Source: Chiloscyllium plagiosum (Eukaryota). From it: DNA of 64,000 nucleotides. Position 1 is the stretch's first letter. Each line of letters starts with the position of its first letter. The stretch is from contig NC_057718.1 in NCBI RefSeq assembly GCF_004010195.1, forward strand, positions 99,782,996-99,846,995, in the 5' to 3' direction. Under the pieces are notes generated by a model. That model made no database searches and had not been told where the DNA came from. It saw only the letters and a program-made list of their open reading frames with translations. Below are positions 5,478 to 59,518 of this stretch, in pieces. The position numbers were made by a program, and so were the translations under genes.

Positions 5478-5570
5478 ATCCTGAGGAAGGGTCACCAGAC
5501 CCGAAAAGTTAGATTTCTCTTCACAGATGCTGCCAGACCTGCTGAGCTTGTCCAGCAATTTCTGCTTTGG
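5478..5570 (+). mobile_element. Penelope-like pseudo-LTR (pLTR) fragment, family B, with hammerhead-like core
   Basis: CTGAGGA-A-GGGTC-ACCA-GACCC-GAAA at 5481-5506, then the gatgctgccagacctgctgag tail shared with 20410 and 59311. Confidence 0.7.
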
Positions 5571-6016
5571 CTTCCTCAGGACTGAGGGTGACTTCCTTCC
5601 ACACTGGAGCTGCGGGTCTTAAGATGGCGCAGTAGGCGGATGCTGGAGGCATTTCCTCTGCCCTTGTGGCAACCAGTTGCCATGATGAAGATAAACATAC
5701 AACTGAGAAACAAGAGTAGGCCGCTAGGCCCATTGAGCATGCTCCGCCAAGACACAAGATCGTGGTTGATCTGATTTTAGCCTCCACTCTATACTCCTGT
5801 GTATCTCTGATACTTTTCATCCCTTTGGTCTCCAAGGATCTATCCCATTCTGCCTTAAAAATATTTAAAGATCCTGCATCTTTTGAGGAAGGGAATTCCA
5901 AAGATTCTCAACTTTCTCCTTCTATGTCATCCATTTCAGACAGTGTCACAAAATATTGACAGCTGTTGGCCCAAGGATTCTTTCAGTGCTGCTCTCCTCC
6001 CATCCCCCTTCATGAA

Positions 6017-6178
6017 ACCCCATCACCGTATCCATCTGTCCCCATCTCCGTATTCATCTGGCCCCATCTCCGTATCCATCTGTCCCCATCTCCATATCCA
6101 TCTGTCCCCATCTCCGTATCCATCTAACCCCATCGTCGTATCCATCTAACCCTATCGTCGTATCTATCTATCCCATCA
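6017..6178. repeat. Divergent 22-bp minisatellite (ccccatctccgtatccatctgt/aa), about 7 copies
   Basis: Directly visible; it is the reverse complement of the array at 6826-8430. Confidence 0.9.
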
Positions 6179-6536
6179 CTCCTGTCTTTGTGTTCTTCTC
6201 TCTTTTCCCCCTTCAGTGCATCTGTTTACTTGCGTCACTCCTTGTGGTAGCGAGGACCACATTCTCATCACCATCTGGGTAACAATGTTTCTCGTAAAGT
6301 TCCATCAGATTTACTAGTAACGGCCTTATATTTATGGCGCCATGTTTCAGTTTTACGTTTCAAGAAGGAGTTAGCTATAGTTCGTGAGGCTAAAGCAGTC
6401 AAAGCGAATAGAGAGAAAGCGGGAGCAGGGGACTGAGATGAGATCAGCCGTGATTAAACGGAATGGTGGAGCAGGCTGAAAGGGCTGAATGGCCTTCTTC
6501 TGTTCCAATTTTCTATGTTTTTACGTCTTGCCAGCA

Positions 6537-6766
6537 TAGAGTCACTGAGGTCTACAGCATTGTCCTTCGGCCAGACTTGCCGTCCAGTTTTCACATATAA
6601 ACTAGTCCCATTTGCTTGTGTTTGGTCCATATCCCTCCATGTACCTGTCCAAACGTTTCTTTAATGACAAAATTGTACTCAACTCCACCACTACCTGTTC
6701 CAGACACTTGTCACCCTCTGTGTGAAAAAAAAAACCATCTGGACCCTTTTGTATCTCTGCCCTTTC
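6537..6766 (-). mobile_element. HER1/CR1 3' fragment, left part (target of the L1 insertion; continues at 12796-13007)
   Basis: The HER1 tail and FFTQRV region join seamlessly to 12813-13007 once the L1 and one TSD copy are removed. Confidence 0.8.
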
Positions 6767-6825
6767 TTTTTTTTTATATCGATATTTTTATTAGAAATTT
6801 AACATTTTTACAAGTTTACAAAAAT

Positions 6826-8430
6826 ACGGTGATGGGGACAGATGGATACGGGGATGGGGTTAGATGGATACGGGGATGGGGTTAGATGGATACGGAGATG
6901 GATACAAGGATGGGGTTAGATGGATACAGGGATGGGGTTAGATGGATACAGGGATGGGGTTAGATGGATACGGGGATGGGGTTAGATGGATACGGAGATG
7001 GGGTTAGATGGATACGGAGATGGGGTTAGATGGATACGGAGATGGGGTTAGATGGATACGGAGATGGGGTTAGATGGATACGGAGATGGGGTTAGATGGA
7101 TACGGAGATGGGGTTAGATGGATACGGAGATGGGGTTAGATGGATACGGAGATGGGGTTAGATGGATACGGAGATGGGGTTAGATGGATACGGAGATGGG
7201 GTTAGATGGATACGGAGATGGGGTTAGATGGATACGGAGATGGGGTTAGATGGATACGGAGATGGGGTTAGATGGATACGGAGATGGGGTTAGATGGATA
7301 CGGAGATGGGGTTAGATGGATACGGAGATGGGGTTAGATGGATACGGAGATGGGGTTAGATGGATACGGAGATGGGGTTAGATGGATACGGAGATGGGGT
7401 TAGATGGATACGGAGATGGGGTTAGATGGATACGGAGATGGGGTTAGATGGATACGGAGATGGGGTTAGATGGATACGGAGATGGGGTTAGATGGATACG
7501 GAGATGGGGTTAGATGGATACGGAGATGGGGTTAGATGGATACGGAGATGGGGTTAGATGGATACGGAGATGGGGTTAGATGGATACGGAGATGGGGTTA
7601 GATGGATACGGAGATGGGGTTAGATGGATACGGAGATGGGGTTAGATGGATACGGAGATGGGGTTAGATGGATACGGAGATGGGGTTAGATGGATACGGA
7701 GATGGGGTTAGATGGATACGGAGATGGGGTTAGATGGATACGGAGATGGGGTTAGATGGATACGGAGATGGGGTTAGATGGATACGGAGATGGGGTTAGA
7801 TGGATACGGAGATGGGGTTAGATGGATACGGAGATGGGGTTAGATGGATACGGAGATGGGGTTAGATGGATACGGAGATGGGGTTAGATGGATACGGAGA
7901 TGGGGTTAGATGGATACGGAGATGGGGTTAGATGGATACGGAGATGGGGTTAGATGGATACGGAGATGGGGTTAGATGGATACGGAGATGGGGTTAGATG
8001 GATACGGAGATGGGGTTAGATGGATACGGAGATGGGGTTAGATGGATACGGAGATGGGGTTAGATGGATACGGAGATGGGGTTAGATGGATACGGAGATG
8101 GGGTTAGATGGATACGGAGATGGGGTTAGATGGATACGGAGATGGGGTTAGATGGATACGGAGATGGGGTTAGATGGATACGGAGATGGGGTTAGATGGA
8201 TACGGAGATGGGGTTAGATGGATACGGAGATGGGGTTAGATGGATACGGAGATGGGGTTAGATGGATACGGAGATGGGGTTAGATGGATACGGAGATGGG
8301 GTTAGATGGATACGGAGATGGGGTTAGATGGATACGGAGATGGGGTTAGATGGATACGGAGATGGGGTTAGATGGATACGGAGATGGGGTTAGATGGATA
8401 CGGAGATGGGGTTAGATGGATACGGAGATG
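6826..8430. repeat. Near-perfect 22-bp tandem array (gatggatacggagatggggtta)n, about 72 copies; possibly an assembly gap-fill
   Basis: Period 22 read directly. Copies after about 6990 appear invariant. Confidence 0.95.
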
Positions 8431-11265: not shown

Positions 11266-11779
11266 CATCTGGGCAAATCCGAGACCCCTCGGGAGGGGAA
11301 ACCCTATCCAGAACATCCCGAGCATAGAGCATATAAAATTCACAAAAATAAAGCCTCTCTAATACACTCACAACAGTGTAATAAAAAACTATTTCTAAAT
11401 AATAAAAAAAATGTATTTAAATGGAGATTTTCCCCCTTCTTCCCAGGGGGTGTCACTTCCTTTCCAAAGGTCCATCGTATCCACTCCCAACAAATGCCCC
11501 ACCCTTGACCCAGGCGCTCCTCAATAGGATGAGGAGAATTCAGATATAATACAAAGCTAGAGTTAACAGTGAGCACCCCACCCCCACCCACACCAACACA
11601 TAATAAAATAAAACAACCCCAAGGGGGGGAGAAAATCATTAAATAGAGAACAAATAAATAAATCCCTCTCCCCACCCCCCAAGATAATATTAAACAGTAA
11701 GGTAAGAAAAAATAAAAAATGGGGGGATATAAACCGGAGTGGGGGAAAGGCAAATCAACATCCATTATCTCTTACAATT

Positions 11780-12625
11780 TATCTAAGAGAGTCCAAAAAT
11801 TCCTTAGCCTTTTCTGGCGATCCGAAGTTATACACATCCTTCATGGTTAAAGCGTAGCGTCGCTGGGTAGCCTGAGGAGTACTGAATATTTAAGTCCCTT
11901 AAACACTTCTTCGCCTCATCGAATGCCTTCCTCTTTCGGACCAGAGCTGGGGAAAAGCCCTGGAATAACATGATCTTGGATCCTTTATAGATCATGGCTT
12001 GGGAATCTTTTCCAAGATTTCTAGAGGCTTCTAGGAGTACCTGCCTCTCTCTTTAGCTCTGCAGCCGGAACAGGACCGGGCGGGGACGCTGGTTCGAGCC
12101 GGGCCCGCGTATTGCGACCCGGTAGGCCCGTTCCACCCCTACCTGGCCTGATCCAGCCTCCAGATTTAAAAGCTGTGGCAGCCACTGCTGGAGGAACGCT
12201 GTAAGCTGGCCTTCCTCTTCCCGTTCGGGAAGGCCCAGCAAACGAATATTTTTTCGGCGACCTCGATTATCGAGGTCATCAGTGTAATTCTCTAAGGTCC
12301 GGACTCGCTGTTTGAGAGTCCGGACCTGATCCATGGCCGATTGCGCTGTAGTTTCGGAGGTTGCGGCCTTTAGCTCTGCCCCTCCGACTCGGCGCTCGAT
12401 TTCTTTAATGTCTCGGTCGTGCTTTTGCAGCGCGGCCGAGAGTGAGTCCCATCGACTTCGGGATTCTTCAATAAAAGCGTTGATCTTCGCATCCAGTTTG
12501 GAGATGATTTCCATGAGGCTCGCCACCATAGGGTAAGTCCCCCGGGGCGGCTGCGGACACCTCTGCTGCAGCTGGGGAGGGGTTCCTGCTTGCTGAGAGC
12601 TGCGGGCTCCCTTCCCTTTAGACAT
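11780..12625 (-). pseudogene. L1 ORF1 (coiled coil + RRM, Transposase_22-like), disrupted
   Basis: ORF 12053-12625 has a coiled coil, then LENYTDDLDNRGRRKNIRLLGLPEREE...ERAYRV...PRPVLFRL, typical of L1 ORF1p. A C-terminal part continues beyond the stop toward about 11780. Confidence 0.9.
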
Positions 12626-13024
12626 TTTTACTGAAGATTAGATTGTTTAAATTTAATACTAAGCAACTAATTAAATTAAACAACTATTTAAAATGATTTG
12701 GTGAGTGTGGTGGGGGTGGGTGGCCCACTTTGCCCAAGTCTTGGGAGGAGCACTGAAGACTCAGACTTGCTGGGTCGCTGCCATCTTGGATCTCCTGTAT
12801 CTCTGCCCTTTCACCTTAAACCTATGCTGTCTAGTTCTTGACTCCTTCACCCTGGGGAAATGCTGTCTGCTATCTATCTTGTCTTTCATAATTTTACAGA
12901 CGTCTATAAAGGTCACCCCTCAGACTTCTACACTTCAGGAAAAGAATTCCCAGCCTATCCAACCTCCTTATAACTCAAACCTTCCAGTCCAGATAGCATC
13001 CTCGTAAATATTTCCAGCAAATGC

Positions 13025-13976: not shown

Positions 13977-14607
13977 CAAAGTTTGGGTGAAGATTTGTAG
14001 CTCGGGTGCTCGTTGTTGTGGTTCTGTTCGCCGAGCTGGAAACTTTTGTTGCAAACCTTTCGTCCCCTATCTCAGTGACATCCTCAGTGCTTGGGAACCT
14101 CCTGTGAAGCGCTTTTGTGGTGTTTCCTCCGGCATTTATAGTGGCCTGTCCCTGCCGCTTCCGGTTGTCAGTTTCAGCTGTCCGCTGTAGTGGCCGGTAT
14201 ATTGGGTCCAGGTCGATGTGTTTGTTGATGGAGTTTGTGGATGAGTGCCATGCTTCTAGGAATTCCCTGGCTGTTCTTTGTTTGGCTTGCCCTATAATGA
14301 TAGTATTATCCCAGTCGAATTCATGTTGCTTGTCGTCTGCGTGTGTGCACGCAGGGAATTCCTAGAAACATGGCACTCATCCACAAACTCCATCAACAAA
14401 CACATCGACCTGGACCCAATATACCGGCCACTACAGCGGACAGCTGAAAATGACAACCGGAAGCAGCAGGGACAGGCCACTATAAATGCCGGAGGAAACA
14501 CCACAGGAGCGCTTCACAGGAGGCTCCCAAGCTCTGAGGATGTCACCTAGACAGGGGACGAAACGCTTGCAACAAAAATTTCCAGCTCGGCGAACAGAAC
14601 CACAACA
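13977..14607. mobile_element. Penelope-like element (Poseidon-type) 3' end as an inverted repeat, with TSD
   Basis: Arms 14014-14269 and 14352-14607 (256 bp each) are reverse complements. They encode the GIY-YIG C-terminus REFLETWHSSTNSINKHIDLDPIYRPLQ. TSD cattataattgagtt at 13962-13976 and 14606-14620. Confidence 0.9.
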
Positions 14608-15024: not shown

Positions 15025-15570
15025 AGTCACAGAGTCCTACAGCACGGAGACAGGCTCTTTGACCCAAACTGGTCCATGCCGACCAAAATGTCTATCCACA
15101 CTAACCCCATTTCCCTGCACTTGGCCCATATCCTTCTGAACCTTTCCTTTCCATGCATTTGAGGAGAAAGTGAGGACTGCAGATGCTGGAGATCAGAGCT
15201 GAAAATGTGTTGCTGGACGTTTATAAACTTCGACGTTTTGGGCATAAGAAGATTCCTGAAGAAGGGCTTTTGCCCGAAACGTCGATTCTCCTGTTCCTTG
15301 GATGCTGCCTGACCTGCTGCGCTTTTCCAGCAACACATTTTCAGCGCTATCCATGCATTTGTCCAAATGCCTCTTAAATGTTGTTAATGTACCCGCCTCA
15401 ATCACTTCTGCTGGCAGCTCATTCCATATGCGTACCACCCTCTGTGTAAAAACGTTTCCCCTCCGGTTCCCTTTTATTCTTTCCCCTCTAACCTTAACCT
15501 GATGCCCCTCTAGTCCTTGATTCCCAACCCTGGTAAAATGACAGAGTGCATTCACCCTATCCATGCCTCG
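15025..15570 (-). mobile_element. HER1/CR1 3' fragment containing a PLE mini-palindrome
   Basis: FTQRVVRIWNELPAEVIEAGTLTTFKRHLDK in ORF 15193-15651(-). Confidence 0.85.
15161..15347. mobile_element. PLE pLTR mini-palindrome, family A, with hammerhead motif
   Basis: Inverted arms. CTGAAGA-A-GGGC-TTTT-GCCC-GAAACGTC at about 15256-15283. TSD tccatgcatttg at 15150-15161 and 15350-15361. Confidence 0.85.
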
Positions 15571-16049: not shown

Positions 16050-17272
16050 GAGGAGTTTTGTGCGCAGTTTTGGTCTCCACATCTGAGGAAGGATGTTCTG
16101 GCAATGGAGGGAGTACAGCAAAGGTTTACCAGACTAATTCCTGGGTTGGCAAGAGTGACACATGAAGAGAGACTGGATCAGTTGGGACTATATTCACTGG
16201 GGTTTAGAAGAATATGGCGAAATCTCATAGAAAACTATAAAATGCTAACCTGACCAGACAGAACAAACACCGGAAGAATCATCCTGATGACCAAGGCATC
16301 CAGAAATAAGGGTCATAGTCTCAGGATAAAATGTAGACCATGGTAGGGCCTTGAGTAGTGTTGAAGAACAGAGAGAACTTGGGGTGCAGGTACATAATTC
16401 TTTGATGTTTGTGTCAGGATGGTTAAAAAGGTGTTGGGCACACTTTCCTTCATTGCTCAGTCCTTTGAGTATAGAAGTTGGAAAGCCATGTTAAGGTTGT
16501 ACAGGAAATTGGTGAGGCTTCTTCTGGAATACTGTGTCCAGTTCTGGTCACCCAGTTATAGGAAGGATATTATGAAGCTGGAGGGGGTTCAGAAGAGATT
16601 TACCAGGATGTTGCCGGGTATGGAAGGTTTGCATTATAAAGAAAGGTCGGATAGGTTGGGACTTTTTTCCCTGGAGCATACAAAGGTTGAGAGGCAACCT
16701 GATAGAAGTTTATAAAATCAAGAGGGGTATAGATAGGGTTAGTATGAATCACCTTATCCCTAGCATGAGTGATTTCAAGACAAGGGGACACATTTCTAAG
16801 GTGAGAGGAGAGAGATTTTTAAAAAAGACATGAGGGGCAGGTTTTTTACACAGGATGGTTTGCGTGTGGAATGAACTTTCTGAGGAAGTGGTGGATGTGG
16901 GTACAATTGCAGACATTTGGATAAGTACATGAATGGTTGAAAAGCGTGGTGCTGGAAAAGCACAACAGGTGAGGCAGCATCCGAGGAGCAGGAAAAACAG
17001 CATTTCGGGCATAAGCCCCAACATTCCTGATGAAGGACTTGTGCCCGAAACATCGATTCTCCTGCTCTTGGATGCTGCCTGACCTGCTGTGCTTTCCAAT
17101 GCCACACTTTTCGACTCTGACTCTCCAATATCTGCAGTCCTCACTTTCTCCGATGTAAATGACTAGGAAAGATTTAGAGGGATATGGGCCAGGAGCAGGC
17201 AGGTGGGACTAGTTTAGTTTGGAATTATGTTCGGCATGGACTGAAGGGTCTGTTTCTGTGCTATATGACTCT
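16050..17272 (+). mobile_element. Two adjacent CR1/HER1 3' fragments; the second contains a PLE mini-palindrome at 16936-17151
   Basis: CAQFWSPHLRKD..EGVQQRFTRLIPGL and LLEYCVQFWSPSYRKDIMKLEGVQKRFTRMLPG. The tail ends near 17272. Confidence 0.85.
16936..17151. mobile_element. PLE pLTR mini-palindrome, family A
   Basis: Inverted arms. CTGATGA core at 17027-17033 followed by a stem and GAAA. Ends in ctcactttctcc. Confidence 0.8.
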
Positions 17273-20409: not shown

Positions 20410-20770
20410 AGTTCTGAGGAAGGGTCACCAGACCCGAAATGTTAACTCTGATCTCTCTCCACAGCTGCTGCCAGACCTACTGAGCATTTCCAGCAACATC
20501 TATAGACAATAGACAATAGGTGCAGGAGTAGGCCATCCTGCCCTTCGAGCCTGCACCACCATTCATTATGATCATGGCTGATCATCCTCAATCAGTGTCC
20601 TGTTCCTGCCTTATCTCCATAACCCTTTGATTCCACTATTCTTGAGAGCTCTATCCAACTCTTTCTTAAACTAATGCAGAGACTGGGCCTCTACTGCCCT
20701 CTGGGGCAGAGCATTCCACACACATGAAGGTTTTTGTTTCTGATTTACAGTGTCCGCAGTTCTTTCAGTA
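20410..20770 (+). mobile_element. PLE pLTR family B fragment with hammerhead motif, split by a CR1 fragment (about 20503-20722, minus)
   Basis: AGTT-CTGAGGA-A-GGGTC-ACCA-GACCC-GAAA-TG-TT-AACT at 20410-20447. The pLTR tail resumes at about 20730 (tttctgatttacagtgtccgcagttctt). Confidence 0.75.
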
Positions 20771-20825: not shown

Positions 20826-21049
20826 GCTGAAAATATGTTGCTGGAAAAGCGCAGCAGGTCAGGCAGCATCCAGGGAACAGGGGAATCGACGTTTCGGGCA
20901 TAAGCCCTTCTTCAGGAATGGCTGAAGAAGGGCTTATGCCCGAAACGTCGATTCTCCTGTTTCCTGGATGCTGCCTGACCTGCTGCGCTTTTCCAGCAAC
21001 ACATTTTCAGCTCTGATCTCCAGCATCTGCAGACCTCACTTTCTCCTCA
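20826..21049. mobile_element. PLE pLTR mini-palindrome, family A, with two opposed hammerhead cores
   Basis: Arms about 20826-20915 and 20922-21012. Core CTGAAGA-A-GGGC-TTAT-GCCC-GAAACGTC at 20922-20949, mirrored on the minus strand. TSD gggatacaatrgctg at 20815-20829 and 21050-21064. Confidence 0.9.
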
Positions 21050-22189: not shown

Positions 22190-23190
22190 TGATTGATTGA
22201 TTGTTTGATTGTCACATGTACTGAAGTACAGTGAAAAGCTTTGTTCATGAGCAATCCAGGCAGATCCTAGTAAGCAAGAACGAACAGATCAGAGAGACTT
22301 AGACAGAGGTATACAGGTTACATTGCACAGGCAACACCTAGGGGAGATCAGTGTTAGCAAGATCATTGTTTGAGGCTCGAGGGTCCATTCATCAGTCTAA
22401 TAACAGCTGGGAAGAAGCTGTTCCTGAACCTGTAGGTGCGTGTGTTCAGGCTTCTATACCTTCTGCCTGATGGAAGAGGTTGTAGGAGATGATTACCAGG
22501 GTGTGAGGGTCTTTGATGATGTTGGCAGCTTTTCTGTGGCAGTGAGCCGTGTAAATGGAGTCCATGGATGGGAGGTTGGCTCCTGTGATGGTCTGGGCTG
22601 TGAACATCACCCTCTCTAGTTTCTCACAGTCCAGGCCAGAATAGTTGCCGTATCAGGCCATAATACACCCGGACAGTATGCTCTCAGTGGTGCAGCTGTA
22701 GAAGTTGGTGAGGGCCCTTGTGGACATGCTGAATTTCCTGAGCTGCCTGAGGAAGAAGTGGCAATGTTGTGCCTTCCCGACCGTCACATCTACGTGGGAA
22801 GGCCAGGACAGGTTGTCGGTTATCGTCACTCCGAGGAACTTGACGCTCTCCACTCTCTCCACCTCCACTCCTTTAATGTAGCTGGGGACATGTCCTCCTC
22901 CTTTCTTTCTGAAGTCAATGATCAGCTCTTTAGTTTTGCCGATGTTGAGAGAGAGGTTGTTCTCATTGCATCACGTTACCAAGCCTTCTATATCCCTTCT
23001 GTATCTAACAACTCATCGTTGTTAGATATCTGGGATTAGTGGTGCTGGAAGAGCACAGCAGTTCAGGCAGCATCCAAGGAGCAGCGAAATTGACGTTTCG
23101 GCGTTGTTAGATATCCGTCCTATTACAGTGGGGTCAGCAGCGAACTTGTAGATGGCGTACATTCGGAATTTGGCAACACAGTCGTGGGTG
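22190..23190 (-). mobile_element. Rex1/Babar-type LINE 3' fragment
   Basis: ERVESVKFLGVTITDNLSW..KAQ..FFLRQLRKFSMS..LTNFY.CT.ESILSGCI in ORF 22653-22868(-). YKFAAD is an RT remnant near 23140. (TTGA)n tail at about 22188-22210. Confidence 0.8.
23031..23101 (-). mobile_element. 71-bp PLE pLTR family A fragment with a perfect 14-bp TSD
   Basis: cgttgttagatatc at 23017-23030 and 23102-23115 flanks the pLTR sequence. Confidence 0.85.
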
Positions 23191-23603
23191 TCCATTTGAA
23201 TAGGAGGTTGCCCTTGTAAGACAGAGATGAGGAGGAATTTCTTCTGAGAGAGGGTGGTGAATCTGTCGAATCTGTGCAGAGCCTGGACCATTAAGTGTAT
23301 TCAAGGCTGATGTTAATCAGGAAGAGATTACATTAGATCCCCTACAGCGTGGAAATAGGCCCTTCGGCCCAACAAGTCCACACCAAGAGAATCAAGGATT
23401 GTGGGAAGAGGGCAGGAAAGTGGAGCTGAGAGTTTTCAGATCAGCCGCGATTTCAGTGAATAGTGGAGCAGACTCGATGGGCTGAATGGCCTACTGTTTG
23501 GACTAGGCCAGACCACTCAAAACATTCTTAAGCAGGCAACCTCAGACCATAACTTTGCAATTCGTTTTGGTAAGTGTACAGTGAAAATTACCCGGTGTAA
23601 GAT

Positions 23604-24340
23604 CAAAAGAGAAAATGCTGGAAAATCTCAGCAGGTCTGGCAGCAGCTGTAAGGAGAGAAAAGAGCTGACATTTCGAGTCTAACTGACTCTTTGTCAAAG
23701 CTAAAAAAAAGGGAGAAATAGGGAGGTATTTATACGAGGCTGAGAGCAGGTGAGTCCTGGCTCCAGAAGCAAAGGTAATAATAAAGAGGTGATAATGACA
23801 GTGCACAGAGAGATTATAGGGAGATTAGGAGCTGTGAATGACCAAGGCTGAAGCCAGGGCTATGTGACAAAATATGTGGGGGATGGGAGGGAATGGGTGA
23901 AGCAGAGGCAAAATAGAAAACAGGGGAGAAGGGTAGCAAAGGGGAAAGAGGAGAGAAAAAGGGTAATGAGAGAGCGGGGAATGAGAGAAAGAGAGACAAT
24001 CAAGAAATAAGAGGTACAGAACAGTGAAAAAGCATATTAAAAAAAGGATAAATAAAATAAATGAAATAAAATTACAGAGCAGAATGAAAACAGAGGGGTC
24101 GAGATGGGATAATCATCTGAAGTTGTTGAATTCAATGTTGAGACTGGCAGGCTGTAACGGGCCTAGTCGGAAGATGAGATGCTGTTCCTCCAGTTTGCGT
24201 TGAGCTTCACTGGAACATTGCAGCAGGCCAAGGACAGACATGTGGGTATGGGAGCAGCATTGGGTGTTGAAGTGGCAAGCCACGGGAAGGACTGGGACCT
24301 GATTGCGTACAGACCGAAGGTGCTCAGCAAAGCGATCACC
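23604..24340 (-). mobile_element. Penelope-like element (Neptune-type) 3' end: GIY-YIG C-terminus, pyrimidine-rich UTR and pLTR
   Basis: ORF 24113-24388(-): DRFAEHLRSVR...PVACHFN...HMSVLGLLQC...RKLEEQHLIFRLG.LQP..LNIEFNNFR. Hammerhead-like motif at 23664-23702. Confidence 0.9.
23664..23702 (-). ncRNA. Minimal hammerhead-ribozyme motif with U3-A8 core variant (PLE family D)
   Basis: Minus strand reads AGCU-UUGACAA-A-GAGUC-AGUUA-GACUC-GAAA-UG-UC-AGCU, with perfect stems I and II. Confidence 0.65.
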
Positions 24341-24660
24341 AGAGACGGGCAATAAATACTGGCCCAGCCAGCAATGCTCACATCCCATGAATAAATTTGT
24401 AATAAGTCAGTGCCGAGTATAGTACAAAGTGTATTTAAACAATGAGCAAGAAATTTCACTTGCTAGAGCCTTAAGAAACATTTAGGCTGTGGGTAAGATT
24501 GTTGAAGCAACAGAGGGAAACCTTGATATCTCAGTTAAAAAATAAATCTCAGTACCACGCAACTAAAACCAAGAGAATGCCTCTTTTCTAACAATCTCAT
24601 CCTTGTTTCATATCAGAAAAACTGGCTCTATGTCACGTTTTCTCAGATAATTTAGAGCCA

Positions 24661-30205: not shown

Positions 30206-31187
30206 CAAGGTTTGTGTTTGTAGCTTGGGTGCTGGTTGCCGTGGTAGTGGGTATGGTTGCCGAGCTGGAAACTGCTTTGCAGACATGTTGTCCCCCTGTC
30301 TGGGTGACATCTTCAGGGCTTTGGAGCCTCCTGTGATGCACTGCTGTACAGTGTCTTCTGGGATTTATTTAGTTCCGTTCCTGCTGCTTCCAGCTCCAGC
30401 TGTTTGTTGCGGTGGCTGGTAGATTGGGTTCGAAAGGTGTGGTGCTGGAAAAGCACAGCTGGTCAGGCAACATCCGAGCTGCAGGAGAGACGGCGTTTCA
30501 AGCATAAGCTCTTCCTGATGCCTGAAACGTCGATTCTCCTGCTCCTCGGATGCTGCCTGACCTGCTGTGCTTTTCCAGCACCACACTCTCGACTCTGATC
30601 TCCAGCATCTGCAGTCCTCACTTTCTCCCGGTATATTGGGTCTGGGTCTATGTGTTTGTTGATGGAATCCGTGCAAGAGTGCCATGCTTCTAGAAATTCT
30701 CTGGCTGTCCTCTGTTTCCTATAATCAAGGTGTTGTCCCAGTCAAATATGTGGTTGTTGCCATCCGTGTGTATGGCCTGGGAATTTGTGGAAGCTTGGCT
30801 CTCATCCACAGACTCCATCAACAGATACATAGACCAGGAGTCAAGATTAGAGTGGTGCTGGAAAAGCACAGCAGGTCGGGCAGCATCCGAGGAGCAGGAG
30901 AGTCGATGTTTTGGGCAAAAGCCCTTCATCAGGAATCGTGACTCTGATCTCCAGCATCCGCAGTCCTCATTTCGCCACATAGACCTGGACCCAATCTATC
31001 GGCCACTACAATGAACAATGAGAACCAGCAACTGGAAGCAGCAGAAACTGAACCAAATAAATCCCAGAAGAGACAGTACAGCAGCGTGTCCCAGGAGGCT
31101 CCAAAGCACTGAAGATGTCACCCAGACAGGGGGACGAAACGTCTGCAAAGCAATTCCCAGCTCGGTGAACATACCCACAACCACCAC
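30206..31187. mobile_element. Poseidon-type PLE inverted repeat with 12-bp TSD, inserted in an old CR1 fragment and carrying two nested family A inserts (30430-30628, 30840-30976)
   Basis: TSD atcttatacatt at 30194-30205 and 31188-31199. EFVEAWLSSTDSINRYID|LDPIYRPLQ is split by the second insert. Arms are homologous to 13977-14607. Confidence 0.88.
31106..31146 (+). ncRNA. Minimal type I hammerhead-ribozyme motif, core intact (Poseidon-type PLE)
   Basis: GCA-CUGAAGA-U-GUCACCC-AGACA-GGGGGAC-GAAA-CG-UC-UGC: 3-bp stem I, 7-bp stem II with one mismatch, ACGU palindromic helix III and a GUC cleavage triplet. Confidence 0.7.
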
Positions 31188-42222: not shown

Positions 42223-43497
42223 TAACCCATCCAACCAGAATGGGAACAAGTCAACCTCAACCTCGAGGGAGAGAAACAGAAAAGGGCTGAGGTTTCAACC
42301 CAGTTCAGGAAAGTTTGGCTAGTCCTTAGGACAAAATCTTTCGTCCATCCTCTCAGCCGGTCAGCAGAATGTACAGGGGAGAAATTCTGCAAAGACTATT
42401 CTCTGTCCTGCATGTTGCATCAGTCAGGCATCATTTGGTAACCATTTAGATACGAAATGCTGAGGATGCTGGAATTCTGAAACAAAACCAGAATGTGCTG
42501 GAGAAACTCAGCAGGTCTGGCAGCAACTGTTGAGAGAGAAATAGAGCTAACATTTAGAGTCCAGTGTAATTCTTCAAGATCTGCTAATTGGTAAAGTTGG
42601 CCTTCACTTCCTCGTTGACTGTGTTTATTGCTTTGATATTTACTTGGCTTTTCCCCCAGTTTCTTTCTGCTCCCATAACTTACAATCATACGACACAAAA
42701 TGTATCCAAAAAAAATCCTCCCGATGACTTTTCAGCCAAGCAACCAGCAGCTCTCACTCCAACGTGCCCTGTCACAGTTTGCAACGCTCTGCAGTGTATC
42801 GTTATTAAAACAAAAATCAGCGAGTCAGTTTTCACCATTGTTGACTTTGGGGACCACTGTCTGTCACCCTTGACAGATTTATTCAAAGATACACACATCA
42901 GCATAAACCCAGGCACTTCTTCATTCTGGCCTGTGTGTACCTTAAGCCCAAATAGCTCCCCAAATATTCACAATAAGAACAAGAGCGCCAATTCAGCAAG
43001 CTGCATTCAGATATCTTGCCTTCTCCCGGTGGGGATTTATTCTGCAGCTCAGCTCCTCCTCGGAGCAACATGGGCACTAGATGAAATAATATCAGTCATG
43101 TTTTTGTTGTATAATTACATGCACTTACTGCAAAGCCCTCTTTTCAGTATAATTGGTGTGCACTGCTGTTGTTGAGATATTCTCAAGTGTTACTGGTTGT
43201 TGATCAAATTGTAGGTTTAATCGGCATTAGCCGAGTAATAGAATGGTGTAATTGTCTCTTTGATGCCTTTATTAAGGCTAAAATTAAATGGTGTAGGCAC
43301 TGACTTCCAAGGTAATGTTACACTTGGTCTAATGTAATATTGATCAGTTCTATAGGGGTATAATATTAAACCTGATGGAGCTTTGAAAGCCAGTGATTAT
43401 TCATCATTGTGATCGTAGGAAACAAACCTCAGAGCTTTCCTTTGCTTTTTAACTCCTGCAAGACAGGGGCTGAGTTGGTTGGGATTGGCCGTTTAGC

Positions 43498-43734
43498 GTC
43501 GAGAGTGTGGCGCTGGAAAAGCACAGCCTATCAGGCAACATCCGAAGCGCAGGAGAGTCGATGTTTCGAGCATAGCCCTTTATTAGGTATCCCGATGAAA
43601 CCCTTCATCCTGATAAAAGGCTTTTGCCCGAAATGTCAATTCTCCTGCTCCTCGGATGCTGCCTGACCTGCTGTGCGTTTCCAGCACCACACTGTCAACT
43701 CTGATATCCAGCATCTGCAGTCCTCACTTTCTCC
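43498..43734. mobile_element. PLE pLTR mini-palindrome, family A, older
   Basis: Inverted arms, a degenerate core (ctgataaaaggcttttgcccgaaatgtc), and a ctcactttctcc end. Confidence 0.8.
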
Positions 43735-43949
43735 ATTCCCAGTTTAGTTCTTAAGCAATAAATGGAATAACTCCTTATAAGAATATTTGTGCTGGCGTTT
43801 AAGTTTGCATTATATACGATACAATGTGATAAATTACAATCCATTAGTTTCTTATTTTTACCAGCAGACGTGGTTGTTCCTGGTCAGGTTGCATATCCTG
43901 ACCTGCCGGTAACATTTTCAGAGTACCATCCTGTATTTGACCCTTTTGT

Positions 43950-44281
43950 AATTGTCTCTCTGCCTTAATTAATCTGATCATAGGTCATCCCTTCACTTGC
44001 TATTCAGCTGTTGACACTTAACTCACACCATCTGACACTTTTGATCACCTGCAAAGATTTGTTATTCAGCCTGTCGACACTCCACTCACACCACTTGTAT
44101 TTATCTTTTGATGCCCTTAATTACCTGGAACTTTCTCGCCATTATCTGTCTGTCTATAAATTCTGTGCCAGTGTGCTTCCCTCTGCTTCACCTGTCAAAG
44201 GAGCAGCGCTCCGAAAGCTTGTGATTTCAAATAAACCTGTTGGACTGTTGCAACCTGGTGTCCTGTGACTTCTGACTTTGA
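43950..44281 (+). mobile_element. PLE 3' UTR/pLTR, family C, with mutated hammerhead core
   Basis: cac-CTGTCAA-A-GGAGC-AGC-GCTCC-GAAAGCTT-gtg at 44189-44223, then aataaacctgttgga as in 58015-58253. Confidence 0.75.
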
Positions 44282-45149: not shown

Positions 45150-45620
45150 GAAACAGAGTGGCACTTAACCTGTTGTCTGTCACTGGGTTGTGAGGTCGTG
45201 GGTCAAGATTAGAGTGGTGCTGGAAATGCACAGCAGATCAGGCAGCATCCAAGGAGCAGGAAAATTTCGGGCAGGAGCCCTTCATCAGGAATGTGAGGTC
45301 TTGGGTTCAAGTCTCACTCCTGAAGAGCAGAAGTTCAGGCAGATACTATAATGCAATAACAAGGAGTGCTGCACTGGATACAGAGGCTGAACTGTCCTGG
45401 TAGGTGGGTGCAAAACATCTCATGGCACCATGTTGAAGAAGAGCTGGGATATTTTTCCTTTAATTGACCTCAAGATAGCAGATTGTCACATTGCTGCGTG
45501 GGATCTTACTGTGCAGCGATTGATTGCCATATTTCCTACTCGGACAACAGTGACTACACTTCAGAAACATCCTGAGATTCCCAAAACAATGTACTCGATA
45601 AATCACATATTTCTTTTCAT
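45150..45620 (+). mobile_element. Deu-domain SINE-like element (SacSINE1-like), degenerate, with an 88-bp PLE insert at 45204-45291
   Basis: Deu-like cattgctgcgtgggatcttactgtgc..attgattgcc..tttcctac..acagtgactacacttca at about 45490-45563. Insert TSD tgtgaggtcktgggt at 45189-45203 and 45292-45306. Confidence 0.6.
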
Positions 45621-53695: not shown

Positions 53696-54023
53696 TACCA
53701 TACATTATGTGGTGGGTCAGCATTCCAGAGACAAATGATCTATTTGAAGACCCAAATGCATGCAGCTAGGAACCACCAATCCCCAGCAACCAAGAATGAA
53801 AACCAGGTTAATTTTAATTCCCCATCTTTACTCCAGTTAATAACAGTTCTGAAGAAGAGTCATATCAAACTCAAAACATTAGCTGTTTCTCTCTCCACAT
53901 ACACCATCCAGCACTTCTGATTTCATTTCAGATCTCCAGCATCCACTGTATTTCATTTTCATTTGACTTTGGTCATGGTCAGATGAATTCAAGAAGTCCA
54001 CTCATCACGGCTGTAAATTTATC

Positions 54024-54160
54024 ACGATGGCTCAGTGGTTAGCACTTCTGCCTCACAGCACTGGGGACCCAGGTTCGATTCCACCCTCGGGTAACTGCCT
54101 GTGTGGAGTTTGCACATTCTCCCCATGTCTGTGTGAGTTTCCTCCCACAGTCCAAAGATG
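54024..54160 (+). mobile_element. HE1-type V-SINE 5' half (3' half at 57361-57558)
   Basis: The head and V-domain end at ccaaagatgt and resume as tgtgcaggttagggtgg after the CR1. Confidence 0.9.
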
Positions 54161-57100
54161 TCCTCACGGGGGAGAGGGCCCAGCAAGAGGTCCTTGTCCA
54201 CATTGGAACCAACGACATAGGAAGGGAAAAGGTTGAGATTCTGAAGGGAAATTACAGAGAGCTAGGCAGGAATTTAAAAAGGAGGTCCTCGAGAGTAGTA
54301 ATATCTGGATTACTCCCAGTGCTACGAGCTAGTGAGGGCAGGAATAGGAGGACAGAGCAGATGAATGCATGGCTGAGGAGCTGGTGTATGGGAGAAGGAT
54401 TCACATTTTTGGATCATTGGAATCTCTTTTGGGGTAGAAGTGACCTGTACAAGAAGGACGGATTGCACCTAAATTGGAAGGGACTAATATACTGGCAGGG
54501 AGATTTGCTAGAACTGCTTGGGAGGATTTAAGCTAGTAAGGTCGGTGGGTGGGACCCAGGGAGATAGTGAGGCAAGAGATCGATCTGAGACGGGTACAGC
54601 TGAGAACAGAAGTGAGTCAAACAGTCAGGGCAGGCAGGGACAAGGTAGGACTAATAAATTAAACTGCATTTATTTCAATGCAAGGGACCTAACAGGGAAG
54701 GCAGCTGAACTCAGGGACATCATAGCAATTACAGAAACATGGCTCAGGGATGGGCAAGACCGGCAGCTTAATGTTCCAGGATACAAATGCTACAGAAAGG
54801 ATGGCAAGAGAGGAGGGGGAGTGGCATTTTTGATAAGGGATAGCATTACAGCTGTGCTGAGGGAGGATATTCCCGGAAATACACTCAGGGAAGTTATTTG
54901 GGTGGAACTGAGAAATAAGAAAGGGATGATCACCTTATTGGGATTGTATTATAGACCCCCTAATAGTCAGAGGGAAATTGAGAAACAAACTTGAAAGGTG
55001 ATCCCAGCTATCTGTAAGAATATTAGGGTGGTTATGGTAGGGGATTTTAACTTTCCAAACATAGACTGGGACTGCCAGAATGTTAAGGGTTTAGATGGAG
55101 AAGAATTTGTTAAGTGTGTACAAGAAAATTTAGAAAAGGATAGACCAGATCTAAAAGTTGAAGTTCTAAATTGGAGAAAGGCCAATTTTGACGGTATTAG
55201 GCAAGAACTTTCAAAAGCTGATTGGGGGCAGATGTTGGCAGGTAAAGGGACGGCTGGAAAATGGGAAGCCTTCAGAAATGAGATAATAAGAATCCAGAGA
55301 AAATATATTCCTATCAGGGTGAAAGGAAAGGCTGATAGGTATAGGGAATGCTGGATGACTAAAGAAATTAAGGGTTTGGTTAAGAAAAAGAAGAAGCATA
55401 TGTAAGGTGTAGACAGGATAAATCAAGTAAATACTTAGAAGAGTATAAAGGAAGTAGGAGTATACTAAAGAGGGAAATCAGGAGGACAAAAAGGGGACAT
55501 GAGATAGCTTTGGCAAATAGAATTAAGGAGAATCCAAAGAGTTTTTACAAATATATTAAGGACAAAAGGGTAACTAGGGAGAGAATAGGGCCCCTCAAAG
55601 ATCAGCAAGGCGGCCTTTTTGTGGAGCTGCAGAAAATGGGGGAGATACTAAATGAATATTTTACATCAGTATTTACTGTGGAAAAGGATATGGAAGATAT
55701 AGACTGTAGGGAAATAAGTGGTGACATCTTGCAAAATGTCCAGATTACAGAGGAGGAAGTGCTGGATGTCTTGAAACGGGCAAAGGTGGATAAATTCCCA
55801 GGACCTGATCAGGTGTACCTGAGAACTCTGTGGGAAGCTAGAGAAGTGATTGCTGGGCCTCTTGCTGAGATATTTGTATCATTGATAGTCACATGTGAGG
55901 TGCCGGAAGACTGGAGGTTGGCTAGTGTGGTGTCACTGTTTAAGAGGGGCGGTAAGACCAAGCCAGCGAACTATAGACCAGAGAGCCTGTCCTCGGTGGT
56001 GGGCAAGTTGTTGGAGGGAATCCTGAGGGACAGGATGTACATGTATTTGGAAAGGCAAAATCTGATTAGGGATAGTCAACATTGCTTTGTGCGTGGGAAA
56101 TCATGTCTCACAAACTTGATTGAGTTTTTTGAAGAAGTAACAAAGATGATTGATGAGGGCAGAGCAGTAGATGTGATCTAGTTGGACTTCAGTATGGCGT
56201 TCGACAAGGTTCCCCATGGGAGACTGATAAGCAAGGTTAGATCTCACGGAATACAGGGAGAACTTGCCATTTGGATACAGAACTAGCTCAAAGGTAGAAG
56301 ACAGAGGGTGGTGGTGGAAGATTGTTTTTCAGATTGGAGGCCTGTAACCAGTGGAGTGCCACAAGGATCGGTGCTGGGTCCACTACTTTTTGTCATTTAC
56401 ATAAAGATTTGGATGTGAGCATAAGAGGTACAGTTAGTAAGTTTGCAGATGACACCAAAATTGGAGGTGTAGTGAAGAGCAAAGAGGGTTACCTCAGATT
56501 ACAACAGGATCTGGACCAGATGGGCCAATGGGCTGAGAAGTAGCAGGTGGAGTTTAATTCAGATAAATGCGAGATGCTGCATTTTGGGAAAGCAAATCTT
56601 AACAGGACTTATACACTTAATGGTAAGGTCCGAGGGAGTGTTGCTGAACAAAGAGACCTTGGAGTGCAGGCTCATAGCTCCTTGAAAGTGGAGTCGCAGG
56701 TAGATAGGTTAGTGAAGGCGGCGTTTGGTATGCTTTCCTTTATTGGTCAGAGTATTGAGTACAGGAGTTGGGAGGTCATGTTGCGGCTGTACAGACTGTT
56801 GGTTAGGCCACTGTTGGAATATTGCGTGCAATTCTGGTCTCCTTCCTATCGGAAAGATGTTGTGAAACTTGAAAGAGTTCAGAAAAGATTTACAATGATG
56901 TTGCCAGGGTTGGAGGGTTTGAGCTACAGGGAGAGGCGGAACAGGCTGGGGTTGTTTTCCCTGGAGTGTCGGAGGCTGAGGGGTGAGCTTATAGAGGTTT
57001 ACAAAATTATGAGGGGCATGGATAGGGTAAATAGGCAAAGTCTTTTTCCTGGGGTCGGGGAGTCCAGAACTAGAGGGCATAGGTTTAGGGTGAGAGGGGT

Positions 57101-57360
57101 AAGATAGACAAGAGACCTAAGGGGCAACTTTTTCATGCAGAGGATGGTACGTGTATGGAATGATCTACCAGAGGACGTGGTGGAGGCTGGTACAATTGCA
57201 ACATTTAAGATGCATTTGGATGGGTATATGAATAGGAAGGGTTTGGAGGGATATGGGCCGGGTGCTGGCCGGTGGGACTAGATTGGGTTGGGATATCTGG
57301 TCGGCATGGACGGGTTGGACCGAAGCGTCTGTTTCTGTGCTGTACATCTCTATGACTCTA
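54161..57360 (+). mobile_element. HER1/CR1 LINE, 3.2 kb, 5'-truncated within ORF1, with stops, frameshifts and internal deletions
   Basis: ORF1 SGNH-esterase motifs VHIGTND and DGLHLN. Endonuclease motifs YFNAR, ITETWL, GGGVA, YRPPNS and GDFNFP. RT motifs PGPD, NYRP, QHCF..KSCLTNL and SKFADDTK. Tail ctctatgactcta. Confidence 0.95.
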
Positions 57361-57840
57361 TGTGCAGGTTAGGGTGGACTGGCCATGCTAAATTGCCCCA
57401 TATTGTCCAGGGGATGTGCAGGCTAGGTGAGTTGGCCATGGGAAATGCAGAGTTGCAGGGATGGGGTAGCAGGGTGGGAATGGGTGGGATGCTGTTTGGA
57501 GGGCCGGTGTGGACTTGATGGGTTGAATGGCCTGCTTCCACACTGTAGGGATTCTATGAAAAGCTTCTTAAATATGATAAGGGATTCTCTATCACCTCTA
57601 CCACCCTCTCAGGAAATGAGTTCCAGATTCCCACCACCCTCAGAATGAAAACATTCCCTTACAATCCAACGAGACCTCCTGCCCCTTACCTTAAACCTCT
57701 GTCCCCCCCCCCTCCAGTCACTGAACCCTCCATCATAGGGAAATATTTCTTCCAATCTGTACCCCTCAATCATACCCTGAGTTAGTCTCTACTGCTCTAA
57801 GGAATGAAACTCCAGTCTGTCCAATCTCTCCTCATAACTA

Positions 57841-58321
57841 CAGGGTCCCCACCCCCCGCTATCCGAAAGTGGAGTGTTCCTGTGAAACCTCTCGTAAGGA
57901 GAAATGGCGTTAAGCGAAGAAGCATGTATGTATATGGGAAAGATTTCGCCTTTTCTCATAAAAGCGAAAATCCTCTTCGGATTCTTTTGGTTAGCGAAGA
58001 CAGCTACTAACGCAATGATATGGAGGTGCTGGTGTTGGGCTGGGGTGTACAAAGTTAAAAAAAATCCACACAACACCAGGTTACAGTCCAATAGGTTTAT
58101 TTGGAAGCACTAGCTTTCTGAGCGCTGCTCCTTCATCAGGTGATTGTGGTGTATAAGATTGTAAGACACCACAGTCTTACAATCTTATTCTCCACAACCA
58201 CCTGATGAAGGAGCAGTGCTCAGAAAGCTAGTGCTTCCAAATAAACCTGTTGGTACTAACGTAGGTCTTTCACAAAAGGAAAGTAGCGTAAAGCAAACTT
58301 TCGAAAAGCGGGGGAAACCTG
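57841..58321 (+). mobile_element. Tc1/mariner (Tigger/pogo-like) MITE inserted in a CR1 fragment
   Basis: TA flanks at 57839-57840 and 58322-58323. Imperfect TIRs cagg..ccccgctatccgaaag and ctttcgaaaagcggggg..cctg. The host reads ctcataacta|aaactctccagc. Confidence 0.8.
58015..58253. mobile_element. PLE pLTR palindrome, family C, with two opposed hammerhead motifs
   Basis: Arms 58088-58167 and 58174-58253. cac-CTGATGA-A-GGAGC-AGT-GCTCA-GAAAGCTA-gtg at 58199-58233, mirrored at 58108-58142. TSD tactaacgya at 58005-58014 and 58254-58263. Confidence 0.88.
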
Positions 58322-59310
58322 TAAAACTCTCCAGCCCAGGCAACATCCAGGTAAACTAAATACCTGAAAAAAAACTGTTTCTGAAACTATTTCTGCATTG
58401 GCAATAGTTGAAGGTACTGACTCAAATCTTTCCCATCTTCCCCTACTGAAAGGCTGTCTTATTATCCCAGTAGGATTATCATCACCCTGGCTGGTTCCCT
58501 GCATTTGGAGGTAATGACGGCTCCAAGCTCAGGAAACTCTATCTGTTTCACTCTTTGTTTTTCCAGGCGACAAACATCTGTCACTGAGCAGCCAGCCTTA
58601 CAGACTGAGGTCGATAATGCACCGAGATCCCAGCTCTCATTCCTGTATAATAGCTGACTAAAAGGTGCCGTAAATCACAGGGGCAAGGCCTGCGCTATAA
58701 TAGAGACACATCACAGGCCATCAGAAACATGTATTGTAATAACATATGCAGTCAAGTAATTTGCAGCTGCTCATTACTTCAGACCAATACAACACAATCA
58801 ACATACACAACTTGTTAATTATGTTGTCAACATTTACTGCTGAGTCTCAACCAGATCTACAAGGAGGAAAAAACAACCCTCCACCCCAACTAGCTTTGTC
58901 ACTCCAAGACAATCAGCTACAGAAGTGAATTCTACATCATTTAATTCTTCAGCACTTCACCCTCCTAGAACAACCTACAGATAATTTATTCCAGATTAAC
59001 ATGAAAATACGGCCAAAGACATTTTGGAAGCCAACTGGGGATATTTTCACATGATTCTGCTTGACTGTGTGGAGCCAAGAATATGATTAATCATTCCTTA
59101 ATAGGGTTTGCAGGAAAATAGACTCTTCAGTAGCTGAGGGTCTGATCTCTTGGATTGTGCCAGAGGTACTGTTTGTGCTGGGTCTGCCCAACAGACTTAT
59201 CCATCAGCATTCACACATCTCTGACCATTCTCGGCTGGGAATAATTTATGTTTTACGCACTCCTGATGTTACCATCTCTTAGCTTATCAAAGCAGGTGAA
59301 CAGGGAGATT

Positions 59311-59518
59311 TCAAAACCAGACATTGCTGGAAAAGCTCAGCAGGTCTGGCAGCAACTGTGGAGAGAAATCAGAGTTAACGTTCTGAGGAAGGGTCACTCT
59401 GGCCTGAAACCTTAACTCTGATTTCTCTCCACAGGTGCTGTCAGACCTGCAGAGCTTTTCCAGCAATTTCCAGTTTTTTCCTGATTTAGAGCGTCCGCAG
59501 TTCTTTCGGTTTTTATTT
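59311..59518. mobile_element. PLE pLTR mini-palindrome, family B, perfect 14-bp TSD
   Basis: tgaacagggagatt at 59297-59310 and 59519-59532. The inverted arms surround CTGAGGA..GAAA. Confidence 0.88.

What the first reader, a model, noticed from the sequence alone, without database searches (positions are those of the whole stretch)
5478..59518. About five Penelope families, each carrying its own minimal hammerhead ribozyme, are scattered through the window
Seen in sequence: the layout stemI-CUGAnGA-(one extra nt)-stemII-GAAA-(palindromic 4-mer)-UH-stemI recurs with different stem sequences. Family A has GGGC/GCCC and ACGU (15256, 17027, 20922). Family B has GGGUC/GACCC (5481, 20410, about 59380). 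Family C has GGAGC/GCUCC and AGCU (44189, 58199). Family D is at 23664(-). The Poseidon type has GUC..GAC (about 14530, 31106). Conserved cores with covarying stems are the signature of selected RNA structure. Established: PLE pseudo-LTRs encode minimal hammerheads with a loopless palindromic helix III, thought to act as dimers (Cervera and de la Pena 2014). Inference: this genome holds a very large, diverse ribozyme population that the ORF track cannot show.
Basis: partly seen in the sequence, partly recalled or inferred. Interest (0 to 1): 0.8.

Follow-up and report, generated by a model that had tools for sequence, protein, structure and literature searches.

The report
Penelope retroelement hammerhead relics
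The window holds 19 recognisable copies of a small hammerhead-shaped RNA motif on stubs of at least five families of Penelope-like jumping genes, a known pairing; most copies are mutated and likely inert, and the stubs tend to begin at the motif's front edge, likely where the element's RNA starts.

Summary
The motifs are real: 11 descriptor hits against 1.0 in shuffles. They sit at the ends of Penelope-like elements (PLEs), and all five families have GIY-YIG coding sequence upstream in longer copies. Between families, helix I covaries (20 of 21 cells paired), so the source elements were under selection for the fold.

The inserted copies look dead. Only 2 of the 11 named are intact, as are 62 of 245 in a 1.15-Mb sample. 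G12 is lost in about a fifth of copies, and intact same-strand partners are rare. One family still has 69,589 exact cores genome-wide.

Short Neptune-type copies start within about 10 nt of the motif, 29-32 nt behind a TATA-like box, not at the cut site, with excess G before them. They are likely run-off cDNAs from uncut RNA.

This is a known kind (Cervera 2014). The scan found it before on other DNA of this genome. No cleavage was tested.

The parts
5478..5570 (+). Family B stub; hammerhead C3 at 5481, broken (helix III AAGU, helix I deletion)
14012..14607 (.). Family P inverted pair with GIY-YIG C-terminal coding sequence; hammerheads at 14087(-) and 14534(+), both broken; 17-nt target-site duplication (13960-13976 / 14604-14620)
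15160..15348 (+). Family A stub with a short inverted arm; intact hammerhead 15252-15287, predicted cut after 15283; 15-nt duplication
16936..17151 (+). Older family A fold-back stub; hammerhead C3 at 17027, broken
20410..20500 (+). Family B stub; hammerhead 20410-20447 with 4-bp helix I and wobble helix III (AUGU)
20826..21049 (.). Young family A palindrome: intact hammerhead at 20915(-), helix-I-less copy at 20922(+); folds as one long hairpin (-99.8 kcal/mol for 20826-20965); 15-nt duplication on either side
23600..24382 (-). Family D 3' fragment: GIY-YIG C-terminus (24125-24382), TATA box, hammerhead 23664-23702 with U3-A8 core and wobble helix III, tail
30241..31184 (.). Family P inverted pair; intact hammerhead 31106-31146(+), broken one at 30316(-); two nested family A stubs (about 30427-30628 and 30849-30979); 12-nt duplication
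43494..43735 (.). Old family A fold-back stub; broken cores at 43586(-) and 43610(+)
44140..44267 (+). Family C 3' fragment with TATA box (upstream end not mapped); hammerhead C3 at 44192, core broken (CUGUCAA)
45210..45296 (-). Family A stub; C3 at 45288, deletion through helix III
58060..58253 (.). Family C inverted pair; cores at 58139(-) and 58202(+), both with C11.1 to A
59311..59518 (.). Family B fold-back stub; C3 at 59383(+), helix III broken; 14-nt duplication
23039..23101 (-). Family A tail fragment cut off inside the core; others like it at 41020-41110(-) and 42479-42575(-, B/D type)

Best explanation
These are minimal type I hammerhead motifs on inserted end fragments of at least five Penelope-like retrotransposon families; the fold was likely kept by selection in the source elements, where it is predicted to cut only as a dimer or with protein help, while the scattered copies are mostly mutated and likely inert. 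In the four Neptune-type families (A-D) the order is TATA-like box, hammerhead, a 60-95-nt tail and, in the one family A copy that continues, the ORF start. The likely route to the stubs is this: the PLE protein nicks the target and starts reverse transcription inside the tail (as shown for an Anolis PLE), copies through the uncut hammerhead, and runs off the RNA's 5' end about 4 nt in front of the core. A second, inverted arm is often added. Longer copies would come from the tail at the 3' end of a read-through transcript. SHOWN: motifs, PLE linkage, covariation, decay, end clustering, duplications. INFERRED: transcription start, cap, run-off, dimer or protein-assisted cleavage.
For: PLE link: an A-linked ORF finds 23 longer relatives, 13 with RVT_1, 7 with GIY-YIG, 2 with both. 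tblastn places this ORF just upstream of 51 A, 12 B, 14 D, 1 C and 1 E anchors; the window's P peptide lies upstream of 12 P and 12 P2 anchors. Covariation: helix I positions 1-3 pair in 20 of 21 cells over 7 family majorities, best of 5040 partner permutations (mean 7.9; slid controls 2-4); helix III is ACGU or AGCU; the 3-8 pair is C-G or U-A. U3-A8 in 43 of 48 D copies, none C-G. Decay: G12 changed in 11/56 A, 7/40 B, 15/49 C, 11/48 D copies against 3.5-6.5% at non-CpG core sites. Ends: short copies are 114/173 A, 37/42 B, 39/54 C, 7/13 D; 109 of the 114 A ends lie within 9 nt of C3. Only 3 of 189 A alignments start within 3 nt of the cut site. 7 of 24 listed contig pieces start exactly at A2.4 of D. 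TATAAA lies at -33 (B), -36 (D), -37 (C) from C3. ATG at +162, aligning with a homologue's residue 1. G precedes A2.4 in 4,913 against A in 1,369 matches (78%, background 56%). Internal priming on uncleaved RNA: PMC11167929.
Against: No cleavage and no transcription start was measured. In A and B the non-CpG core is better conserved than the flanks (0.047 vs 0.088, p=0.001; 0.035 vs 0.092, p<0.001). I read this as subfamily divergence in the flanks, but weak selection on copies is not excluded; C and D show no difference. The 5' ends are spread over about 10 nt, not one base. P and P2 have a TATA-like box at -53/-48 but no end cluster (3/15 and 4/22 short; all 28 listed extend past -45 by eye). 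The G excess is confounded: 14 of 42 inspected junctions end in CCTG, which may be a duplicated piece of the element, and of 7 duplications found by script only 1 leaves the G untemplated. Family A has TTTATC, not a canonical TATA. The most abundant A subfamily has a U-U mismatch at helix I pair 3. The ORF start was seen in one copy only.
Confidence: 0.88

Rival explanations
1. The scattered copies form a working ribozyme population that cuts host pre-mRNAs, pairing in trans or between neighbouring insertions.
For: An estimated 1.4-1.9 x 10^5 intact-looking motifs. Family A sequence is present on both strands in a poly(A) RNA run (2,296 reads laid). Non-CpG core sites are better conserved than flanks in A and B.
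Against: G12 and the helix III CpG decay freely. 2 of 62 intact copies have a same-strand partner within 1 kb, and 32 of 62 face an antisense arm. Published minimal PLE hammerheads cut poorly even as dimers or only with PLE protein, and 8 of 9 Xenopus dimers did not cut.
Confidence: 0.06
2. The short stubs are separate non-autonomous SINE- or MITE-like families copied from their own short or hairpin master genes, not by-products of full-length PLE transcripts.
For: At least 19 loci share one identical 251-nt inversion junction, and several share the junction of the 20915/20922 palindrome. Stubs carry target-site duplications.
Against: Most junctions differ from locus to locus. Stubs match long ORF-bearing copies letter for letter. 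Many shared-junction loci abut assembly gaps, so gap filling may inflate them.
Confidence: 0.2
3. The 5' ends cluster because the folded hammerhead or helix I complementarity makes the reverse transcriptase stop or fold back, not because the RNA begins there.
For: The cluster coincides with the foot of helix I, many copies carry an inverted arm joined there (53 of 98 A ends within 9 nt), and the ends are spread over 10 nt.
Against: A structure should stall the enzyme on its 3' side, not after it has been copied (inference). P and P2 have the same fold but no cluster. TATA spacing and the G excess are unexplained. C ends reach further upstream than B or D ends, as its TATA spacing predicts (small numbers).
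Confidence: 0.25
4. The motifs are chance matches in repeat-rich DNA.
For: Single monomers fold no better than shuffles (z -0.3 to -1.7); Rfam has no hit.
Against: 11 against 0.98 hits, covariation, a fixed place behind the GIY-YIG ORF, and 69,589 exact matches against 0 for the reversed pattern.
Confidence: 0.01

Closest known systems
Minimal hammerheads (min-HHR) of metazoan PLE pseudo-LTRs, Cervera and De la Pena 2014, PMC4209133 (parts 1-2 of 4 read; term search of 2 supplement files, a third not searchable)
   Same: Type I order, extra nucleotide between 9 and 10.1, G10.1-C11.1, loopless palindromic helix III, several families per genome, mostly solo copies, some pairs on opposite strands; a U3-A8 core variant was reported in Schistosoma.
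   Different: Helix I is 2-4 bp here against 4-5 in Schistosoma. One exact family pattern gives 69,589 matches against about 4,000 (coelacanth) and 9,000 (Xenopus), with different descriptors. U3-A8 is here fixed in a vertebrate Neptune-type family. No shark term was found in the supplement files searched.
Anolis Poseidon element PAc, Frangieh et al. 2024, PMC11167929 (parts 1-2 of 4 read)
   Same: Hammerhead followed by a tail with two preferred ends (A ends cluster at about +80-94 and +120-124); uncleaved RNA as the template; no RNA ends seen at the cut site.
   Different: In PAc the ORF starts in stem II; in family A it starts 162 nt behind C3. The parts read do not describe run-off stubs. 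Targets there are AT-rich; target preference was not tested here.
PLE insertion architecture, Craig et al. 2021, PMC8557442 (passages), and Penelope promoter, Schostak et al. 2008, PMC2377424 (passages)
   Same: 5' truncation, inverted 5' arm, tail on one end only, CX2-5CxxC linker in Neptune, promoter inside the pseudo-LTR.
   Different: Drosophila Penelope has a TATA-less internal promoter with an intron ending at helix I; here a TATA-like box lies about 30 nt in front of helix I.
Animal non-LTR retrozymes, Li et al. 2026, bioRxiv 10.64898/2026.07.22.740005 (parts 1 and 3 of 5, and passages; supplements not seen)
   Same: Non-coding PLE-end sequences with type I hammerheads; one chondrichthyan was sampled and was positive.
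   Different: Retrozymes are head-to-tail arrays with an active motif in each unit; the window's copies are solo or inverted.

Membership tests
Minimal type I hammerhead of PLEs | Core C3-U4-G5-A6-N7-G8-A9 ... G12-A13-A14-A15.1 ... U16.1-H17 (or covariant 3-8 pair) | tested here: met
   All 7 family majorities; D has U3-A8. Many single copies fail.
Minimal type I hammerhead of PLEs | Extra nucleotide after A9, stem II closed by G10.1-C11.1 | tested here: met
   Extra A or U in 7 of 7; G-C in 4 and G-U (CpG decay, inferred) in 3 majorities.
Minimal type I hammerhead of PLEs | Loopless palindromic helix III | tested here: met
   ACGU in 5, AGCU in 1, AUGU in 1 (P2) of 7 majorities.
Minimal type I hammerhead of PLEs | Short helix I with covarying pairs | tested here: met
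   20 of 21 cells, three pair types per position; family A has U-U at pair 3.
Minimal type I hammerhead of PLEs | Self-cleavage after H17 as a dimer or with protein | not testable with these tools
   Needs an assay.
Rfam hammerhead families | Covariance-model match | tested here: not met
   No hammerhead among 19 matches at E<=10; that the models expect a longer helix III is recalled.
Endonuclease-bearing PLE | Single ORF with RT and C-terminal GIY-YIG upstream of the motif | tested here: met
   A: (GIY-YIG E 4e-4, 21 bits, under the 22.6 cut-off). B, D: RT or linker plus GIY-YIG pieces. C, P: GIY-YIG part only. No intact full-length copy was recovered.
Endonuclease-bearing PLE | 5' truncation, inverted arm, optional tail | tested here: met
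Endonuclease-bearing PLE | Partial-tandem pLTR-ORF-pLTR arrangement | tested here: inconclusive
   One copy runs from hammerhead and tail into the ORF start (L228); no complete unit was fetched.
Neptune clade (A, B, C, D) | CX2-5CxxC linker before the endonuclease | tested here: met
   Seen in A and D, decayed in B, and in one C copy; definition.
Neptune or Poseidon clade | Placement in an RT phylogeny | not tested
   No tree was built. The label Poseidon for P and P2 rests on recalled C-terminal motifs.
Non-LTR retrozyme | Two or more consecutive tandem units with complete hammerheads | tested here: not met
   No tandem array in the window has such a unit; 2 of 62 intact sampled copies have a same-strand partner within 1 kb.

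The most novel reading that the evidence does not exclude
In Neptune-type PLEs the hammerhead is the first 35 nt of the capped mRNA, its helix I doubling as the initiator 30 nt behind a TATA box. Internal priming at the 5' tail yields a strong-stop-like cDNA of 90-125 nt that is inserted by itself, often with a cap-derived G. This by-product has seeded hundreds of thousands of hammerhead-headed stubs in a shark genome, and the ribozyme's job would be to decap or limit its own element's RNA rather than to make the template.
Probability: 0.45. Interest if true: 0.55.

Novelty: new member of a known kind. Interest (0 to 1): 0.3.

Why it matters
The pairing of minimal hammerheads with PLEs has been known since 2014, so the finding as written adds families, not a principle. 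Three details have some use. First, the role of PLE hammerheads is still open, and thousands of insertion ends show that the copied RNA was not cut at the ribozyme, which supports in vivo the in vitro result for the Anolis element. Second, family D is a natural U3-A8 core swap next to C3-G8 relatives, and family A carries a U-U in helix I, giving ready-made test pairs. Third, the count is large (69,589 exact cores of one family), and motif counts should not be read as ribozyme counts.

Tried and rejected
Rfam found no hammerhead. Pfam on 137 window frames of 85 aa or more found LINE domains but no PLE domain, because the PLE pieces are short. PDB sequence search gave nothing. The protein atlas was unavailable.

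RNA: no holder was on record as RNA. One raw poly(A) single-cell run showed no place where many molecules begin or end on A or D; this library cannot be expected to show a cut or a cap, so it is no evidence either way. A second run laid no reads.

An apparent match of P and P2 5' ends to TATA+30 was an indel artefact and was dropped. The single-reference end histogram and the depth step are inflated by A subfamilies with other upstream sequence; the subfamily-aware count is the one used. A conserved tail hairpin (GAUGCUG...CAGCAUC) appears in some folds but not consistently and was not tested for covariation. An ORF starting at the tail's ATG was rejected: it is not conserved in B, and the homologous start lies at +162. 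The match at 12282(-) lies in an L1-type ORF1 and is chance. One search used a wrong range and gave nothing new. Lunse et al. 2017 was not held and is known only from a review passage, so its variants could not be compared. Searches found no paper on shark PLE hammerhead counts, run-off stubs or cap-derived G in PLEs; the library lacks most subscription journals, and unseen supplements may cover these.
Full report
SETTING. The window is part of contig C9 of a 3.56-Gb animal genome. The closest named relatives of a family A protein are from Chiloscyllium punctatum at 73-75% identity, so the host is probably a shark. Besides the motifs the window holds LINE fragments and satellites.

OBSERVATION. 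A descriptor for core plus stem II finds 11 sites against 0.98 in 200 shuffles; the full minimal layout finds 3 against 0. Rfam has no hit. All 11 named places carry a recognisable motif, but only 15256 and 31109 are intact. 20414 and 23698 keep helix III through wobble pairs, and seven are broken. Eight more core-bearing copies were missed, one of them intact (20915-). Family D does not read CUGAnGA but UUGACAA.

WHAT CARRIES THEM. The P copies at 14012-14607 and 30241-31184 and the D copy at 23600-24382 have GIY-YIG C-terminal coding sequence directly upstream in the window. Longer copies elsewhere link A, B, C and D to the same kind of ORF. An A-linked protein retrieves 23 longer relatives, 13 with RVT_1 and 7 with GIY-YIG. 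A, B, D and a further family E share a tail; C is a separate lineage; P and P2 form a third. A-D show the CX2-5CxxC linker that Craig et al. give for Neptune. The label Poseidon for P is recalled, and no tree was built. Insertions have 8-17-nt target-site duplications (7 of 8 window insertions tested; the two 8-nt ones could be chance) and often an inverted arm, as described for PLEs.

SELECTION ON THE SOURCE ELEMENTS. Positions were set by offsets from the core, not fitted to a structure. Over seven family majorities, helix I positions 1-3 form Watson-Crick pairs in 20 of 21 cells with three pair types each. No other of 5040 partner permutations does as well (mean 7.9), and slid registers give 2-4. 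The families are related, so this is not a probability. Helix III switches between two palindromes, ACGU and AGCU. The 3-8 pair is U-A in 43 of 48 D copies (30 of 32 picked by a D query, 13 of 16 met by chance) and never C-G. Cervera reported this swap in Schistosoma. The exception is family A, whose main subfamily has U-U at helix I pair 3, while another has a 4-bp helix.

DECAY OF THE COPIES. I took 120 stretches of 10 kb at round positions on large contigs (1,152,544 called bases). They hold 245 core-anchored copies: 62 intact, 16 with wobble helix III, 167 broken. G12, the general base, sits in a CpG and is changed in 18-31% of copies in A-D, against 3.5-6.5% at non-CpG core sites. Against this reading, non-CpG core sites are better kept than flanks in A and B, though not in C or D; subfamily differences in the flanks probably explain that (inference). 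Dimer partners are scarce: 2 of 62 intact copies have an intact same-family, same-strand neighbour within 1 kb and 6 within 5 kb (counted inside 10-kb stretches). 32 have an antisense arm upstream, and the 20826-20965 palindrome folds into one hairpin that buries the motif. In the window the intact copies have no intact same-family, same-strand partner.

NUMBERS. One exact family A pattern (core, stem II, helix III, 2 bp of helix I) occurs 69,589 times, the reversed control never. The sample extrapolates to about 93,000 for the same pattern, so it over-counts by a third. Scaled and unscaled, this gives about 0.57-0.76 million core-bearing and 0.14-0.19 million intact-looking motifs. Cervera counted about 4,000 and 9,000 in coelacanth and Xenopus with another descriptor.

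WHERE THE COPIES BEGIN AND END. Family A 3' ends cluster at about +80-94 (33 of 127) and +120-124 (55 of 127) from C3. This fits the two internal priming sites that define the tail in the Anolis element. Among copies not picked by a query, 114/173 A, 37/42 B, 39/54 C and 7/13 D lack the upstream region; 109 of the 114 A ends lie within 9 nt of C3, all B ends within 6 and all D ends within 4. Public contigs agree for D: 7 of 24 listed pieces begin at A2.4. Only 3 of 189 A alignments begin within 3 nt of the cut site at +28. So the copied RNA was mostly not cut at H17, in line with the in vitro result that unprocessed RNA is the template. P and P2 show no such cluster.

WHY THERE. Long copies have TATAAA at -33 (B), -36 (D) and -37 (C), and TTTATC at -35 (A). 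That is 29-32 nt before A2.4, or 30 nt before an A at -7 in C. The helix I 5' strands of A, B and E read TCATTC, TCAGTT and TCAGTC, which fit the initiator consensus (recalled, as is the 30-nt spacing). In L228 the tail runs on to an ATG at +162 that aligns with residue 1 of a full-length homologue. The base before A2.4 is enriched for G: 4,913 to 1,369 after T (78% against 56% background); 65 of the first 100 listed in a second A context and 59 of 100 in B, against 40% (counted by eye; tested). An extra G is the expected trace of a copied cap (recalled). The signal is confounded. In 42 inspected junctions all but one lacked the family's upstream region, but 14 end in CCTG, a possible self-duplication. 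Of seven duplications found by script, the G was extra in one, inside the duplication in five, and part of a filler in one. Target bias was not excluded.

MECHANISM. The most likely picture is a promoter in the pseudo-LTR that starts the RNA at the foot of the hammerhead. The protein primes inside the tail. Priming at the 3' tail gives long, variably truncated copies; priming at the 5' tail gives run-off stubs. Cleavage, if it occurs, needs two motifs in one transcript or the protein; it would remove the cap from the 5' motif and the tail from the 3' motif, or make unit-length RNA for circles as Cervera proposed. Which of these is the ribozyme's purpose is not decided here.

COMPARISON AND VERDICT. 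Every sequence feature of the published minimal PLE hammerhead is met at family level; activity is untested. The copies are not tandem retrozymes. The paper searches found no shark counts, run-off stubs or cap G for PLEs, within a partial library. The scan's own notes report the same families and the 5' clustering in other windows of this genome; I read them only after the analysis, and they are not independent support. New member of a known kind; interest 0.3.

Noticed in passing
window 6896-8430 (related units 6018-6174 on the other strand, 6824-6901): A 22-bp satellite of about 70 copies, 99% matches.
   Followed up: no
window 8371-12637 (-): Near full-length LINE with RVT_1 in two frames and a coiled-coil ORF1, L1-like by recalled motif.
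   Followed up: partly
window 54043-57360 (+): LINE with a GDSL-esterase ORF1 piece followed by endonuclease and RT pieces, CR1-like by recall; many 3' fragments of this kind are scattered through the window.
   Followed up: no
window 13067-13329 (+): Decayed PLE RT fragment, 56% identical to P0021, with no hammerhead end attached.
   Followed up: partly
L031-L050 (G000, many contigs): At least 19 loci share an identical 251-nt stretch across one inversion junction of family A; either a palindromic master copy or gap filling next to assembly gaps.
   Followed up: partly
upstream of the core in A (about -25), B (about -12), D (-3); end of tail in A: Pyrimidine tract plus AG, like a splice acceptor; in D the AG is part of helix I, recalling the Drosophila Penelope intron that ends at helix I. 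No spliced form was looked for beyond.
   Followed up: no
L077:9496 and 9719, L083, L058, L107: Two further hammerhead families (E, P2) absent from the window; L077 holds two same-strand E copies 223 nt apart.
   Followed up: partly
window 30241-31184; L014, L043, L050: Family A stubs are often inserted into other PLE or LINE copies, two of them into the P pair here.
   Followed up: no
window 19868-20367: 500-N assembly gap just before the B copy at 20410.
   Followed up: no
runs X1, X3, X6, X15, X20: Family A (two coded organisms) and family D (three) sequence is held in runs of more than one organism; in the D lay no common variant was listed at positions 3 or 8.
   Followed up: partly
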